Assembly: GCA_031414535.1 (NCBI GenBank)
Contig: JANNVQ010000035.1
Coordinates: 1-23,125 of the forward strand
Reading direction: 5' to 3'
Origin: Gemmatimonas sp.
GTDB lineage: Bacteria > Gemmatimonadota > Gemmatimonadetes > Gemmatimonadales > Gemmatimonadaceae
Length of the DNA: 23,125 bases
Numbering within the stretch: the first letter of the stretch is position 1; every line of letters starts with the position of its first letter. The notes under the pieces were generated by a model that worked only from the letters and a program-made list of their open reading frames with translations, did not search any database and was not told the DNA's origin. The position numbers were made by a program, and so were the translations under genes. This document shows positions 1-9,445 of the stretch, piece by piece.

Positions 1-1046
<1,046 letters not shown>

Positions 1047-1059
1047 TCCAACACAGCCT

Positions 1060-1080
1060 CTCCGTGGTGACCGCAGTCGC
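1060..1080 (-). repeat. Remnant arm of a REP-like repeat interrupted by the IS
   Basis: Minus strand reads GCGACTGCGGTCACCACGGAG versus GCGACTGCGGGTCACCACGGAG at 8783-8804 (one-base indel). Both lie just after a stop codon in the same orientation relative to transcription. Confidence 0.85.
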
Positions 1081-1082
1081 CC

Positions 1083-1613
1083 TTACTTCTTGAGCTTATC
1101 GAAAAACACCTTGCGCGCCTTCGACACTTTGGGCGCAACGACAACGGCGCAATACGGATTCGAAGGATTCCGCGCTAAGTAGTTGTCATGGTAGTTCTCG
1201 GCGGGCCAGAACTTTCCAAGCGTCTCAAGTTCCGTCACGATAGGATTGTCCCAATGCGCCTGCGCCGCAGCAAGCTTCTCGCGCGCCACCCGCGCCTGCT
1301 CATCAGAATGGGTGTAGATGGCCGAACGGTACTGCGGGCCCACGTCGTTGCCCTGACGGTCCTTGGTGGTGGGATCGTGGATGGTGAAGAACACATCCAG
1401 CAACTCACCGTAGGAAATCACGCTCGGATCAAAGGTTAGCTGCACCACCTCGGCGTGCCCCGTCTGCTTGCCGCAGACCTGCTCGTAGGTGGGATTCTGC
1501 ACGTGACCACCCGTGTACCCGCTCTTCGCCTTCTCCACGCCACGCAGTTCGAGGTACACCGCCTCGAGGCACCAGAAGCATCCGCCCGCGAGAGTAGCCA
1601 TCTCTTGAGTCAC
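1083..1613 (-). CDS. msrA: Peptide-methionine (S)-S-oxide reductase
   Basis: GGCFWC active site, [25 protein letters not shown] and AENYHDNY motifs. GTG start overlaps the msrB stop (GTGA). Confidence 0.97.
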
Positions 1614-2411: not shown

Positions 2412-4427
2412 ATGACCGAACCAACCAAACAACACCTCCTAGAAGCTGCACTTCGCGTGTACGGCGAAGGTGGTTTCCGCGGCGCGACCACGCGGCGCAT
2501 CGCCGAAGAGGCGGGCGTCAACGAAGTCACGCTCTTTCGGCTGTTCGGATCGAAGGCGGCACTGATCACGGCGGCGCTCGAAATGCGCCAGCTGCGTGCC
2601 CCGCGCGATCCGCTTCCCGATGTGCCTGAGAATCCCCAAGCCGAACTCACCAAGTGGGCACAGCAGGACCACGAGTTCATGCTCGCATCTGCAGGGATGA
2701 TCCGCTCCTCTTTGGCCGAGATGCATTCGCATCCCGATTGCGCCGACTCCACGGCGTCGCATCCTGAGAGTTCGTTTGCGGAACTGCACTTGTATGTCGA
2801 GCGCCTTGCCCATCATCGCTTCATCCCCTCGTCGGCTGATGCCAAGCCCGCGGCGGCGATGCTGATGGGTACTATCTTCGCCGACGCCATGGGGCGTGAT
2901 CTAATGCCTTCGATGTTTCCGCCGCGCGAGCAAGCGCCGGCGACGTATGTGCGACTCTTTCTGCGGGCCATCGGTGCCACGGTTATCGCAGCGCTCTTCG
3001 CAATTCTTCCGCTGGCTTTGCACGCGCAGGGCTCCACCCCGGCGTCTGTGTCCAACGCCTCACCGACATCCCTCTCGCTTGCCGATGCGCTGCGCATGGC
3101 CGAGCAGCGCGCGCTCGGCGTTCAAGCCGCGCAGGCCGGTGCGGATCGCGCACGGGGACAGCTCCGTCAGGCCAACAGCCAGCGCTTACCGCAGATCAAC
3201 GGCAGCGCCAGCTATCAGCGCGCCATCCAGAATCAGTTCCAGGCCATCTCGGAGGCATTTCCTGCCGACAGCGCCGACACCACCAGCAGCGGCGGCGGCG
3301 GCGACGGCCTCGCGAATTCACCGCTCGCGGCCATCTTTGCGGCGCCCAACACCTTCGTCTTCACGCTCAGCGCCACGCAGAACATCTGGACCGCTGGCCG
3401 GCTGTCGGCGCAGCGTGCTGGAGCGGAGGCTGGCCGTGATGCGGCCAACATCGCGCTCTCGTCGGCGAAGGCGCAGGCCCTGCTCGATGTCGCACAGGCC
3501 TACTATGACGCTGTTGCCGCCGAGCGATTTGCGGACATCACTGACTCCACGCTGGCGCTCACGGAACGCACCTTCGCGCAAGTGAAGCTCGCGCGAGAAG
3601 TGGGAACCGCGTCGGAGTTTGATTTGCTTCGCGCGCAGGTGACCCGAGACAACGCACGCCCTGCCTCCATCCAAGCGCGTGGCGCGCGCATGGCCGCGCA
3701 GTTGCGGCTGAAGCAGCTGCTGCGGCTTCCGCTCCAACAGCCGCTCACGCTGACCACGCCCATCCGCGATGAAGCGGCCGCGCTTGCGCCAGCGCTCTCA
3801 GGCGTGACGCTCGCCGACTCGCGTAGCATGGCGCCGGATACCAGCGTCAACGCACGCGCCACAGTGCGACAGGCCGAATCGCAGTTGCGTGCACAGGAGC
3901 AAGCACTCAACGCCGCGAAGCTGGCGCGTTTGCCATCCGTACAGCTGAGCTCCAACTACCAGCGCTTCGCGTATCCGCCCGATGGCACCTTCCTTCCGAG
4001 TGATTTGAATCTGTACTTCCCCAACTGGACGGTCTCCTTGGGCATGAGCTTCCCGGTGTTCAACGGCGGTCGCATTGCCGGTGAGCGCATCGTGGCAGAA
4101 GCCAATGTGGCCGAAGCGCGCGTGCAGCTTGAGTCCGCCCGCGACGGTGCTGGGCTCGACGCCATCCTGAGCATCAGCGCACTCGAACAAGCGCAGGCTG
4201 CTTACTCAGCAGCGGTGGGTACCGATACCCAGGCCGAACGCGCGTATCGCATTGCCGAAGTGCGCTTCGCCGAGGGACTCTCCACTGCCGTTGAGCTCAC
4301 GGAGTCGCGCGTCCAATTGGAGCAGGCTCGCCTACAGCGCGTCACGACCGCGCGTGATCTCGAAATCGCTCGCCTTCGTCTCGCGCTCTTAAAGGATCTC
4401 CCGCTGACTCTCGGAGGGAGCCGCTAA
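2412..4427 (+). CDS. TetR/AcrR-family regulator fused via an internal signal peptide to a TolC-family outer-membrane efflux protein (671 aa)
   Basis: N-terminal HTH (GFRGATTRRIAEEAGVNEVTLFRLFGSKAALI); hydrophobic segment ending ALHA|Q at aa ~180-206; then two OEP repeats (LSLADAL, RLPQING, VAQAYY, RFAEGLST). No in-frame stop between domains. Confidence 0.9.
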   Translation: MTEPTKQHLLEAALRVYGEGGFRGATTRRIAEEAGVNEVTLFRLFGSKAALITAALEMRQLRAPRDPLPDVPENPQAELTKWAQQDHEFMLASAGMIRSSLAEMHSHPDCADSTASHPESSFAELHLYVERLAHHRFIPSSADAKPAAAMLMGTIFADAMGRDLMPSMFPPREQAPATYVRLFLRAIGATVIAALFAILPLALHAQGSTPASVSNASPTSLSLADALRMAEQRALGVQAAQAGADRARGQLRQANSQRLPQINGSASYQRAIQNQFQAISEAFPADSADTTSSGGGGDGLANSPLAAIFAAPNTFVFTLSATQNIWTAGRLSAQRAGAEAGRDAANIALSSAKAQALLDVAQAYYDAVAAERFADITDSTLALTERTFAQVKLAREVGTASEFDLLRAQVTRDNARPASIQARGARMAAQLRLKQLLRLPLQQPLTLTTPIRDEAAALAPALSGVTLADSRSMAPDTSVNARATVRQAESQLRAQEQALNAAKLARLPSVQLSSNYQRFAYPPDGTFLPSDLNLYFPNWTVSLGMSFPVFNGGRIAGERIVAEANVAEARVQLESARDGAGLDAILSISALEQAQAAYSAAVGTDTQAERAYRIAEVRFAEGLSTAVELTESRVQLEQARLQRVTTARDLEIARLRLALLKDLPLTLGGSR

Positions 4428-8600: not shown

Positions 8601-8770
8601 TCGGCCGCGCCGTCATCGGCGGAACCATCACGTCAACGGTGCTGACGCTGCTCGTGATCCCGACGATTTACGAAATCATGGACGAGATGCGTAATAAGGT
8701 GGCGGGCTGGTTCAAGTTCCCGGTGCGTCCGAAGACCGAAGAGTACATGGTGCCGACGAAGCCGGTGTAA
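5612..8770 (+). CDS. RND efflux permease subunit (AcrB/AcrD/AcrF family, 1052 aa)
   Basis: MFISDFAIKRP start, GILIDDAIVVREN, AKNAILLIDF and RLRPILMTT proton-relay motifs; two TM clusters with large periplasmic loops. Confidence 0.97.
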   Translation: MFISDFAIKRPLVTIVSMLALVVFGLFSLWQLETDEFPDVQQPIINVAIPFPGASPDVVEREVLDRVEEAVSGISGVDRISGVAQDGFANVTVFFAFEKDLQQASQDIRDKISAIRSELPVEMKEPVLTRFDPADQPIIEMSLNSSTLDAPALTRIADPAITRVLRGLGGVAEANVVGGVERELTVEIRPEAMEAAGITVAQLVGALQSQNIAAPVGRITGALDERSIRLKGKLETPEDFLQLVVAEKGGRSIRLGEVATARDGTAEPRTAAMFNGRDAIGIQVKKSKGYSTTAVSERVVNAMDELRAGLPAGTTLDIVRNAGDRVDASVSNVQSTLIEGALLTVLVVFLFLNSWRSTVITGLALPISVLASFVAVWAFGFTLNTMSLLGLSLAIGILIDDAIVVRENIVRHVEMGKDHFRAAHEGTDEIGLAVAATTFSIVAVFVPIGFMAGLSGQWFKPFALTIACAVLVSLFVSFSLDPMLSAYWPDPEIENHEHRSWISRQLVKFNNWFDKLAGSYTKVIGWALDHRLVMVLLAVGSLAGALFLQATIGGFGFVPVSDNSELIVQVETPPGSNLEYTRLKTEEAAKVARAHGEVRYTFATIGAGGGTDPSEALGAVDLGSVYVRMTPKADRTISQDQFGAILREEVKSIGGASVAVFTSGFGGAIKQVQLELRGADGRQLQIFADSLLQIVRAVPGAVDVSLSTKGQKPELEITLDRALAGSLGVSVGQIAQSLRPAFAGIDAGDWVDPAGENRKVRVRLAAESRTKVSDIERLPISVGGQGGAPMRMMPLGQLATVTQGLGPAKISHLDRDNVVVVQSNVSGRSLGEVTGDITKALNQMQVPEGIRWSFGGEAKDQAQVFGDILAALGIALLLMYLILVMQFGSFLEPIAILISLPLSLIGVVLALIITNDTLNIMSMIGVILLMGIVAKNAILLIDFAKWGQEQGMSRRDAIIEAGRVRLRPILMTTFALIAGMIPVALGIGEGADFRAPLGRAVIGGTITSTVLTLLVIPTIYEIMDEMRNKVAGWFKFPVRPKTEEYMVPTKPV

Positions 8771-8772
8771 GT

Positions 8773-8923
8773 CTCTTCAACTGCGACTGCGGGTCACCAC
8801 GGAGGCACGGAGACCCGGAGAACAGCTTAGAAGTGACTTGGGGGCCCGCGCCGATTTATCGGTGTGGGCCCCCAAAGTTTCCTAACGTCGTTCTCCGAGC
8901 CTCTGTGCCTCCGTGGTGAAGAG
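8773..8923. repeat. REP/REPIN-like palindromic intergenic element between convergent genes
   Basis: 30-bp outer inverted arms 8794-8823 and 8890-8919 (27/30 complementary); inner hairpin 8838-8855/8858-8875; extra CTCTTCA/TGAAGAG complementarity at 8773-8779/8917-8923; second partial copy at 1060-1080. Confidence 0.85.
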
Positions 8924-8935
8924 GCCGTTCAGCGG

Positions 8936-9445
8936 TTACGGACGCGGACCAAACCTACGTGGTGGACGATTCGCGGCGATCCAAGCACGCTGCGCATCTG
9001 TGAGCAGCGCGCGAAGTGCTTCGTGCAGTGCGATCACGTCAGGACGGAGCGCTTCGCCAATCGGCCGGCCGGTCGCGAGGATAGCGCGGATCTCTTCGCG
9101 CGTGGCACCGTCCTGACGAGCCGTGTGCGCGGCTTGGAAGATGGCGCGGAGCGAGTCGAGCGCGCCCTGATGCTCGGTGCGGAAGGCTACGCGTAGGGCC
9201 AACATCGCCGCGCGCTGTCCGTCGCTGAGCGCGATGGAATCCGGGAAGGACGGGCGAATCGTGCGGCCGTCGAACGGACGCGGGCCTGACTGCATGCCCA
9301 TCGTGCCTTCGAGTGCAGCGCCTTGTTCACCGAACATCACTAGCGCGTAATCCTCGGTGCTCGAGAGCGGACCGAGCGGTGACTCGCTGCAGGCCGCGAG
9401 CACTAGCGTCGCGGCGAGGGTGGGGAAAAGCAAACGACGTAACAT
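8936..9445 (-). CDS. Spy/CpxP-like periplasmic lipoprotein
   Basis: Lipobox LAAC; two LTxxQ-like motifs (LSDGQR, LTDAQR) bracketing a helical region; GGAGG RBS. Confidence 0.7.
   Translation of the reverse strand: MLRRLLFPTLAATLVLAACSESPLGPLSSTEDYALVMFGEQGAALEGTMGMQSGPRPFDGRTIRPSFPDSIALSDGQRAAMLALRVAFRTEHQGALDSLRAIFQAAHTARQDGATREEIRAILATGRPIGEALRPDVIALHEALRALLTDAQRAWIAANRPPRRFGPRP

What the first reader, a model, noticed from the sequence alone, without database searches (positions are those of the whole stretch)
1053..1080. IS110 is inserted into a host palindromic repeat; unoccupied target sites are visible 7.7 kb away
Seen: the 21 nt from the IS boundary onward are the reverse complement of 8783-8804 (one indel), and identity starts exactly at CT 1060-1061. 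Inference: the pre-insertion site was TC(C/T)GTGC-CT-CCGTG, so the recombinase targets this repeat family with a CT core. Empty sites exist at 8902-8915 (+) and around AG 8803-8804 (-). Established: REP targeting is known for IS621 and some Pseudomonas IS110s. This target and repeat family give a distinct donor/target pair, a candidate new programmable recombinase.
Basis: partly seen in the sequence, partly recalled or inferred. Interest (0 to 1): 0.8.

Follow-up and report, generated by a model that had tools for sequence, protein, structure and literature searches.

The report
REP-targeting IS110 bridge-RNA element
A small RNA-guided jumping gene of the IS110 family sits at a fixed CT inside one arm of an abundant host hairpin repeat, with empty copies of that landing site 7.7 kb away; the family is already known to behave this way.

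Summary

**The element.** Window 1-1059 is the right 1,059 bp of a 1,146-bp IS110-family element. The contig starts inside it. The genome holds 6 left and 6 right ends, all at contig ends.

**The junctions.**
- All 6 left junctions read ...YTYYGTGC-CT-TGTATG.
- All 6 right junctions read ...ACAGCCT-CT-YCGTGGTRA and then diverge.
- So 1062-1070 is flank, not IS.

**The target.** It is the outer arm of a ~120-140-bp nested palindrome. The exact 15-mer occurs 84 times and forms 60 paired elements. No RAYT gene was found. Both predicted empty sites exist: 8902-8919 (+) and 8794-8811 (-).

**The guides.** The 197-nt left end folds into two stem-loops like the IS621 bridge RNA.
- RTG CACGAAG pairs with CT-TCGTG.
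- LTG GUGCC matches GTGC-C.
- LDG ACAGCCaCU matches the donor.
- Across 13 related elements with 8 distinct right-target guides, 21 of 23 right flanks match their own guide 5/5.
- A sister species carries CACGGAG, and its elements sit in CT-CCGTG arms.
- The window copy and both nearby empty sites are one-mismatch (C-type) sites.

**Verdict.** This is a new member of a known kind. The scan has found the same arrangement before on other DNA. Interest is modest.

The parts
1..1059 (+). Right 1,059 bp of the 1,146-bp IS110-family element. The left 87 bp lie off the contig and are seen on C12, C57, C24, C8, C46 and C43.
3..13 (+). 3' closing strand of the first (target-binding) stem-loop of the bridge RNA. 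Window position 1 is the second handshake base, right after RTG CACGAAG.
18..86 (+). Second (donor-binding) stem-loop of the bridge RNA. LDG ACAGCCACT is at 35-43, RDG CAAG at 66-69 and handshake GT at 70-71.
109..1044 (+). Recombinase gene, 311 aa, with DEDD RuvC-like and Tnp domains. D7, E50, D92, D95 and S230 align with IS621 D11, E60, D102, D105 and S241.
1041..1046 (+). TTGACT, a -35-like hexamer in the right end. After circularisation it would lie 17 nt from TATGTC in the left end. This is inferred, not tested.
   Evidence: TTGAC conserved in relatives; promoter model from PMC11208160 passages
1053..1059 (+). Left donor (LD) ACAGCCT, the last 7 bases of the IS.
1060..1061 (+). CT core dinucleotide, the crossover point, present at both junctions.
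1062..1070 (+). Right target (RT) CCGTGGTGA, the outer remainder of the interrupted host repeat arm (C-type).
1071..1080 (+). Weakly conserved outer flank of the repeat (CCGCAGTCGC). It is not part of the IS and does not recur at the other copies.
8794..8919 (.). Intact host nested palindrome, 126 bp, between the convergent acrB-like gene and ORF 8936-9445. It folds at -99.1 kcal/mol with z = -10.4.
8794..8811 (-). Empty near-cognate site TCCGTGC-CT-CCGTGGTGA (core = 8803-8804).
8902..8919 (+). Empty near-cognate site TCTGTGC-CT-CCGTGGTGA (core = 8909-8910). Its 18 bases are identical to the reconstructed pre-insertion site of the window copy.

Best explanation
This is an IS110-group insertion sequence: 1,146 bp, one DEDD/Ser recombinase gene and a 197-nt non-coding left end. 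It is present in 6 copies.

**Proposed mechanism.** The left end encodes a two-loop bridge RNA.
[quoted passage not shown] - In the second loop, ACAGCCaCU and CAAG read the element's own joined ends, ACAGCCT-CT-TG.
- The recombinase exchanges strands at the shared CT. The element therefore lands, without a duplication beyond CT, in the 11-mer GTGC-CT-TCGTG.

**The target.** That 11-mer lies at the junction of the last two octamer units of the arm of an abundant host nested palindrome.

**This copy.** The window copy sits in the sister C-type arm (CT-CCGTG), one mismatch from the guide. The two empty sites 7.7 kb away are of that same type.

**Shown versus inferred.**
- Shown: junctions, copy number, repeat census, protein family and catalytic residues, conserved two-stem-loop fold, guide/target covariation.
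- Inferred: that the RNA is made, that a circular intermediate forms a promoter, and that recombination follows the IS621 pathway.
For: - **Copies and junctions.** 6 left and 6 right IS ends, all at contig ends. 6 of 6 left junctions are ...GTGC-CT-TGTATG. 6 of 6 right junctions are ACAGCCT-CT-YCGTGGTRA and then diverge.
- **Protein.** Pfam DEDD_Tnp_IS110 at 7e-23 and Transposase_20 at 2e-21. It aligns with the IS621 (8wt6, 1.3e-36) and ISCro4 (9t56, 6.9e-40) recombinases, with all five catalytic residues kept.
- **RNA fold.** The left end folds into two stem-loops. An alignment of 12 left ends gives 24 consensus pairs, 9 of them with compensatory changes.
- **Guide orientation.** The rules come from PMC11208160 section 7 and the handshake rule from PMC11208158 section 11.
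- **Covariation.** 13 related IS species carry 8 distinct RTGs. 21 of 23 right flanks match their own RTG at 5/5 non-core positions, and 2 of 23 match 4/5 (the window copy and G139). Non-cognate pairs average 3.1. 0 of 20,000 label permutations reach the observed sum, for RTG and for LTG alike.
- **Sister species.** In G006 the RTG is CACGGAG. Its 2 right flanks are CT-CCGTGG and its 3 left flanks are C-type.
- **Contiguous occupied sites.** A complete same-genus genome shows GTCTTCGTGC-CT-[IS]-CT-TCGTGGT at 2 of 2 copies.
- **The repeat is independent of the IS.** G012 has 40 copies and G018 has 33 copies of the 15-mer, but neither gave an IS hit.
Against: - No occupied site is contiguous in this genome, because every copy breaks the assembly. 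The pairing of left and right flanks is therefore inferred. That includes C12 start with C35 start for the window copy.
- The LTG is short (5 nt) and does not pair with the core T. 0 of 13 relatives have U at that position, unlike the IS621 description.
- The preference for T-type over C-type arms is not significant within this genome alone: 5 of 58 against 1 of 57, Fisher p = 0.21.
- The related elements are kin, so the permutation test overstates independence.
- No Rfam family matched the left end.
- There are no expression or activity data.
- One left end (C57) carries 5 substitutions, including changes in the LTG, RTG and handshake base, that worsen the match. It may be a decayed copy or a contig-end error.
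Confidence: 0.9

Rival explanations
1. The motif after 1061 (YCGTGGTGA...) is the true terminal part of the IS, carried with it. It would then not be a host target.
For: All 6 right ends extend 7-16 bases past 1061 in blastn.
Against: - The 9 bases are polymorphic at 2 positions among the copies, while the IS just before them (from about 922-931 to 1061) is 100% identical in the other five right ends.
- Everything after 1070 differs between copies.
- The same arm occurs uninterrupted 84 times, as LT-CT-RT with nothing between.
- The arm is also present in genomes with no IS hit.
Confidence: 0.02
2. Site choice is made mainly by protein or structure recognition of the hairpin (cruciform or stem-loop). 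The RNA matches would be secondary.
For: - 4 of 6 left flanks carry the full palindrome with a G+C-rich inner hairpin.
- The element folds very strongly.
- The ISPpu10 preprint (abstract only) reports a target stem-loop as an added specificity determinant.
Against: - 2 of 6 copies lie where no partner arm is present: C46 has five tandem octamers and C43 only a 7-bp mini-hairpin.
- Guides covary base for base with flanks across 8 RTG variants.
- A structural contribution on top of RNA guidance is not excluded.
Confidence: 0.05
3. The palindromic repeats are non-autonomous derivatives (MITEs) of this IS, or are spread by it. They would then not be an independent host repeat family.
For: IS and repeat co-occur in several genomes of the genus.
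Against: - The arms share no sequence with the IS ends, TGTATGTC... and ...ACAGCCT.
- G012 (40 copies) and G018 (33 copies) have the repeat but gave no IS match. Those genomes are 85% and 76% complete.
- IS110 elements are not known to leave such footprints (recalled, not tested).
Confidence: 0.03

Closest known systems
IS621 of Escherichia coli and its bridge RNA (Durrant et al. 2024, PMC11208160; Hiraizumi et al. 2024, PMC11208158)
   Same: - The same two protein domains and all five catalytic residues.
- The guide RNA lies in the left end, upstream of the gene.
- Two stem-loops, each with a left guide in sense and a right guide in antisense.
- A CT core.
- Handshake bases after the right guides. 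The base after the RDG pairs with target position 7 in 11 of 13 relatives (read).
- It targets an extragenic palindromic repeat.
   Different: - The protein match is moderate only (E 1e-36, roughly one third identity by eye).
- The target is GTGC-CT-TCGTG (4+2+5), against ATCAGGC-CT-AC (7+2+2) for IS621.
- The LTG pairs only with the first core base, in 0 of 13 relatives with U opposite the core T.
- The RTG is naturally 7 nt long.
- The host repeat has no RAYT gene in the genome.
ISPpu10 of Pseudomonas putida (bioRxiv 10.64898/2026.03.19.712850; abstract and outline only seen)
   Same: An IS110 element whose insertions all map to copies of one intergenic repeat with a G+C-rich stem-loop 5' of the target. 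Here the inner hairpin likewise lies on the LT side in 4 of 6 copies.
   Different: The role of the stem-loop is untested here. 2 of 6 copies lack the full palindrome. No sequence comparison with ISPpu10 was made.
ISCro4 recombinase (PDB 9t56)
   Same: It is the best solved-structure match of the protein (E 6.9e-40).
   Different: Only the protein was compared. Nothing is known here about its RNA or target.
IS1111-group elements with seekRNA (for example ISPa11; recalled, and named in earlier scan notes)
   Same: RNA-guided DEDD/Ser recombinases, some of which target REP sequences.
   Different: Those carry the guide RNA downstream of the gene, in the right end. Here only 15 nt follow the stop codon and the RNA lies upstream, so this element is IS110-group.

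Membership tests
IS110 family, IS110 group (bridge recombinase) | N-terminal DEDD RuvC-like domain with its four acidic residues | tested here: met
   PF01548 at 7.2e-23. D7, E50, D92 and D95 align with IS621 D11, E60, D102 and D105 (the chain numbering is offset by 2).
IS110 family, IS110 group (bridge recombinase) | C-terminal Tnp domain with the catalytic serine | tested here: met
   PF02371 at 1.9e-21. S230 in ESG aligns with IS621 S241.
IS110 family, IS110 group (bridge recombinase) | Long non-coding left end upstream of the gene that folds into two stem-loops with internal loops | tested here: met
   197 nt run from the core to the ATG. The consensus of 12 left ends has two stem-loops and 24 pairs, 9 of them compensatory. 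Only 15 nt lie between the stop codon and the IS end.
IS110 family, IS110 group (bridge recombinase) | Loop guides complementary to the target and donor halves, including the core | tested here: met
   RTG CACGAAG with CT-TCGTG, LTG GUGCC with GTGC-C, LDG ACAGCCaCU with ACAGCCT-CT, and RDG CAAG with CT-TG. Covariation holds across 13 IS species. The LTG covers only the first core base.
IS110 family, IS110 group (bridge recombinase) | Insertion at a conserved core dinucleotide without a longer target duplication, and no long terminal inverted repeats | tested here: met
   CT is present at both junctions of all ends. The ends give a local inverted-repeat score of 9 over 40 nt, reached by 44 of 1,000 shuffles.
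IS110 family, IS110 group (bridge recombinase) | Promoter reconstituted across the circle junction; the RNA is expressed and needed for recombination | not testable with these tools
   Only a -35-like TTGACT (1041-1046) placed 17 nt before TATGTC of the left end, by reading. No expression data.
REP / BIME elements (RAYT-associated) | Short extragenic palindromes in high copy number | tested here: met
   84 exact 15-mers. 60 paired elements of 68-201 bp, most of them 117-143 bp. The window copy folds with z = -10.4.
REP / BIME elements (RAYT-associated) | A cognate RAYT (Y1 transposase, PF01797) gene in the genome | tested here: not met
   0 matches in the window's own genome, which is 98.4% complete. 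The control search hit 6 of 14 known genomes. I therefore call the repeat REP-like, not REP.

The most novel reading that the evidence does not exclude
This IS clade and the octamer-built palindromes of Gemmatimonadaceae may be co-diversifying. Single-base changes in the right-target guide would retarget the element from one repeat subfamily to another between sister species: CACGAAG here, CACGGAG in G006, CACAGAG and CGCAGAG elsewhere.

The clade would also use a distinct guide geometry: a 5-7-nt left guide that stops at the first core base, plus a natural 7-nt right guide. The palindrome's inner hairpin might serve as an extra structural gate, as reported for ISPpu10.

If so, this would be a natural series of reprogrammed bridge RNAs with a right-heavy recognition code.
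Probability: 0.3. Interest if true: 0.45.

Novelty: new member of a known kind. Interest (0 to 1): 0.3.

Why it matters
It is a clean natural example of bridge-RNA targeting in a phylum, Gemmatimonadota, where I found no paper on the subject. A search for 'Gemmatimon' with 'IS110' found 9 papers holding both words; 8 were listed, and none of those had either word in its title or abstract.

The family-wide set of 13 elements with 8 different right guides, each matching its own flanks, is an independent natural confirmation of the IS621 pairing and handshake rules. It also offers ready-made orthologues with a longer right guide.

In practical terms, this element explains 12 of the contig ends in this assembly. 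It adds nothing new in principle.

Tried and rejected
- **Rfam.** A scan of two left-end loci at E <= 1 gave only two chance hits, MIR533 and RFPL3-AS1. No bridge-RNA family matched.
- **Earlier notes on this genome.** There were none.
- **RAYT search.** No match.
- **Promoter and terminator scan of 8700-9000.** 0 promoter-like and 0 terminator-like sites. The palindrome is therefore not a canonical intrinsic terminator by that scan.
- **T-type against C-type usage within this genome.** Not significant, p = 0.21.
- **Predicted targets of the variant left end on C57.** GAGCCTTCGTT occurs 3 times and GAGCCTTCGTG 4 times. This gave no sign of a second target family and I did not pursue it.
- **Alternative core.** I considered the first CT of ACAGC-CT-CT as the donor core. 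I rejected it because it would predict GTGC-CT-CTTGTATG at the left junctions, which is not seen.
- **Right-end search in G020.** My first regular expressions found no right ends in the G020 copies. I then located them from where the copies diverge.
- **Rows dropped from the counts.** G003/L007 was dropped because its right flank is cut after 4 bases and its left flank has an extra C. The C57 variant was dropped because it has no assignable right flank. The more distant G020, G021, G026 and G029 elements were dropped because their loop geometry differs.

Full report
**1. What is in the window**

The window is the whole of contig C35 of a 58-contig, 3.70-Mb genome.

- Positions 109-1044 (+) encode a 311-aa protein with the two IS110 domains: PF01548 at 7e-23 and PF02371 at 2e-21.
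- It aligns over residues 3-295 with the solved recombinases ISCro4 (9t56, 6.9e-40) and IS621 (8wt6, 1.3e-36).
- D7, E50, D92, D95 and S230 stand opposite the IS621 catalytic residues D11, E60, D102, D105 and S241.
- Only 15 nt separate the stop codon from the proposed IS end.
- The next gene is msrA on the other strand (1083-1613), followed by msrB and an efflux operon.

**2. The observation**

Reading, window 1060-1080 equals the reverse complement of 8783-8804 with one extra C. Identity begins exactly at CT 1060-1061. This is confirmed.

**3. The IS is multi-copy and breaks the assembly**

blastn of window 1-1100 against the genome finds 6 right ends (C35, C12 end, C55, C53, C32, C31). It finds 6 left ends (C12 start, C57, C46, C24, C43, C8). 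All of them lie at contig ends. The contig starts inside the IS, and 87 bp of its left end lie elsewhere.

Left junctions:
- Five read YTTCGTGC-CT-TGTATGTCTCC.
- One (C12) reads CTCTGTGC-CT-TGTATG.

Right junctions:
- All read ...CAACACAGCCT-CT- followed by the flank.
- The flank is CCGTGGTGA in the window, TCGTGGTAA in C12, and TCGTGGTGA in the other four.
- After those 9 bases all six sequences differ.

The IS just before the junction (from about 922-931 to 1061) is 100% identical in the other five right ends, while the 9 bases after it vary at two positions. So 1062-1070 is flank. The IS measures 1,146 bp between two CT cores.

Only C12 has a C-type left flank and only the window has a C-type right flank. 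The window copy's left neighbour is therefore probably the start of C12. That gives a pre-insertion site of TCTGTGC-CT-CCGTGGTGA, identical over 18 bases to the empty site at 8902-8919. This pairing is inferred.

**4. The host repeat**

- The 18-mer arm, allowing up to 3 substitutions, occurs 124-152 times depending on the pattern.
- The two main forms are TTCGTGCCTTCGTGGTGA (36 copies, 'T-type') and TCCGTGCCTCCGTGGTGA (38 copies, 'C-type').
- The exact 15-mer GTGCCTYCGTGGTGA occurs 42 + 42 times, against 0 for the reversed control.
- Sixty pairs of arms face each other at 68-201 bp, most at 117-143 bp, around an inner G+C-rich hairpin. 32 arms are unpaired.
- The arms are built from tandem octamers (CTYCGTGS) ending in GGTGA.
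- The window's copy (8794-8919) folds at -99.1 kcal/mol, z = -10.4. It lies between convergent genes and has no T-tract terminator.
- No Y1/RAYT gene was found in this genome, which is 98.4% complete. I therefore call the family REP-like.
- The repeat occurs in other genomes of the genus, including two that gave no IS match (G012 with 40 copies, G018 with 33). It is therefore independent of the IS.

**5. The guide RNA**

From the core to the ATG there are 197 non-coding bases. Window position 1 is base 90 of this left end, counting from the C of the left core CT.

The minimum-energy fold has two stem-loops. So does the consensus fold of 12 left ends from this and related genomes, with 24 pairs, 9 of them compensatory.

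The published rules are as follows. Left guides read like the top strand, and right guides are the reverse complement of core plus right half (PMC11208160 section 7). Handshake bases follow the right guides (PMC11208158 sections 11-12). Applying them:

- Loop 1, 5' side: GUGCC equals GTGC plus the first core base.
- Loop 1, 3' side: CACGAAG is the reverse complement of CT-TCGTG. It is followed by UG.
- Loop 2, 5' side: ACAGCCaCU equals ACAGCC-T-CT, unpaired at donor position 7. The paper singles out that position as mismatch-tolerant.
- Loop 2, 3' side: CAAG is the reverse complement of CT-TG. It is followed by GU, which can pair with target C7 and G6.

**6. Covariation**

Relatives were found in three ways: by protein in public genomes (the closest are Gemmatimonas and Gemmatimonadaceae MAGs at 78-86%), by DNA in 30 relatives, and by the left end in 300 genomes of the family, 11 of which matched.

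The core was fixed by a distance rule (ACAGC + 2 nt + CT), independent of the guides. Across 13 IS species with 8 different RTGs:

- 21 of 23 right flanks match their own RTG at all 5 non-core positions.
- 2 of 23 match at 4: the window copy and G139, both mismatched at position 10.
- Non-cognate pairs average 3.1.
- The anchored LTG match averages 5.0 for cognate pairs against 2.2 for non-cognate pairs.
- No label permutation out of 20,000 reaches either observed sum.

The elements are kin, so these numbers overstate independence. The 8 distinct guides are the sounder figure.

The neatest case is G006, a species of the same genus. Over the roughly 130 bases of its left end that were recovered, it differs from this element mainly in the first 25 bases after the core, and it carries RTG CACGGAG. 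Its 2 right flanks are CT-CCGTGG, and its 3 left flanks are C-type. A complete genome of the genus (G319) shows two contiguous occupied T-type sites.

In 0 of 13 elements is there a U opposite the core T in the LTG. More distant relatives (G020) do have CU there.

**7. Consequences for the finding**

The element's cognate 11-mer GTGCCTTCGTG has 53 empty copies, against 2.7 expected from composition. The C-type GTGCCTCCGTG has 56.

Five of six copies use T-type arms. The window copy uses a C-type arm, and the two empty sites at 8794 and 8902 are also C-type, so they are one-mismatch sites. Within this genome alone the preference is not significant (p = 0.21).

Four of six copies lie in full palindromes. 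One lies after five tandem octamers with no partner arm (C46), and one lies in a 7-bp mini-hairpin (C43). The full hairpin is therefore not required.

**8. Comparison and novelty**

This is how IS621 and ISPpu10 behave. For IS621 I read passages of PMC11208160. Tobes & Pareja 2006 I saw only in its reference list. For ISPpu10 I saw only the abstract and outline.

The differences are matters of degree:
- another target sequence;
- a right-heavy guide split (4+2+5);
- a left guide that stops at the first core base;
- a REP-like host repeat with no RAYT gene.

Earlier notes of this scan describe the same arrangement in several other genomes. A search for 'Gemmatimon' with 'IS110' found 9 papers holding both words; 8 were listed, and none of those had either word in its title or abstract.

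It is a new member of a known kind, of modest interest.

Noticed in passing
window 2412-4427 (+): One 671-aa open frame holds a TetR_N domain (aa 9-54) and a TolC-like OEP part (two stretches, the best at 476-660), with no stop between them. A signal-peptide-like stretch (…IAALFAILPLALHAQG…) lies near aa 190-205. The outer-membrane gene probably starts internally, or the regulator has lost its stop codon.
   Followed up: partly
G000 contig C57:31-230 (-), locus L001: One IS left end differs from the other five at 5 positions within 70 nt. Three of these are the LTG (GUGCC to GAGCC), the first RTG base, and the first handshake base, which becomes a perfect pair with donor T7. All five changes are to A or T. 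It may be a decayed copy, a variant guide, or a contig-end error.
   Followed up: partly
G000 contig C46, last ~130 bases (locus L005): The left flank of one IS copy is five tandem CTTCGTGC octamers with no partner arm nearby. This is an expanded solo arm, and it offers several in-register target sites.
   Followed up: no
loci L119-L135 (G081, G319, G100, G229, G202, G155, G188, G233, G139): Relatives of the IS were found in eight genera of the family in all, this one included. In most of them the copies sit in arms built from octamers of the same CTNNGNGN type (for example CTCTGCGC-CT-CTGCG and CCGTGAAC-CT-CTGTG). The IS clade and the repeat family seem to have diversified together.
   Followed up: partly
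L007 (G003:C345), left junction: The left flank reads ...CTCTGTGCC-CT-TGTATG, one C more than the guide and the sister elements predict. The contig ends 4 bases past the right core, so the site cannot be reconstructed.
   Followed up: no
loci L097-L106 (G020): A more distant relative (67% nt identity) is present in at least 10 copies of two subtypes in one genome. All sit at TGACGCCYCC-CT-AACGC, which is not the octamer palindrome. Its RTG is GCGUUAG, and its LTG CCUCCCU does include both core bases.
   Followed up: partly
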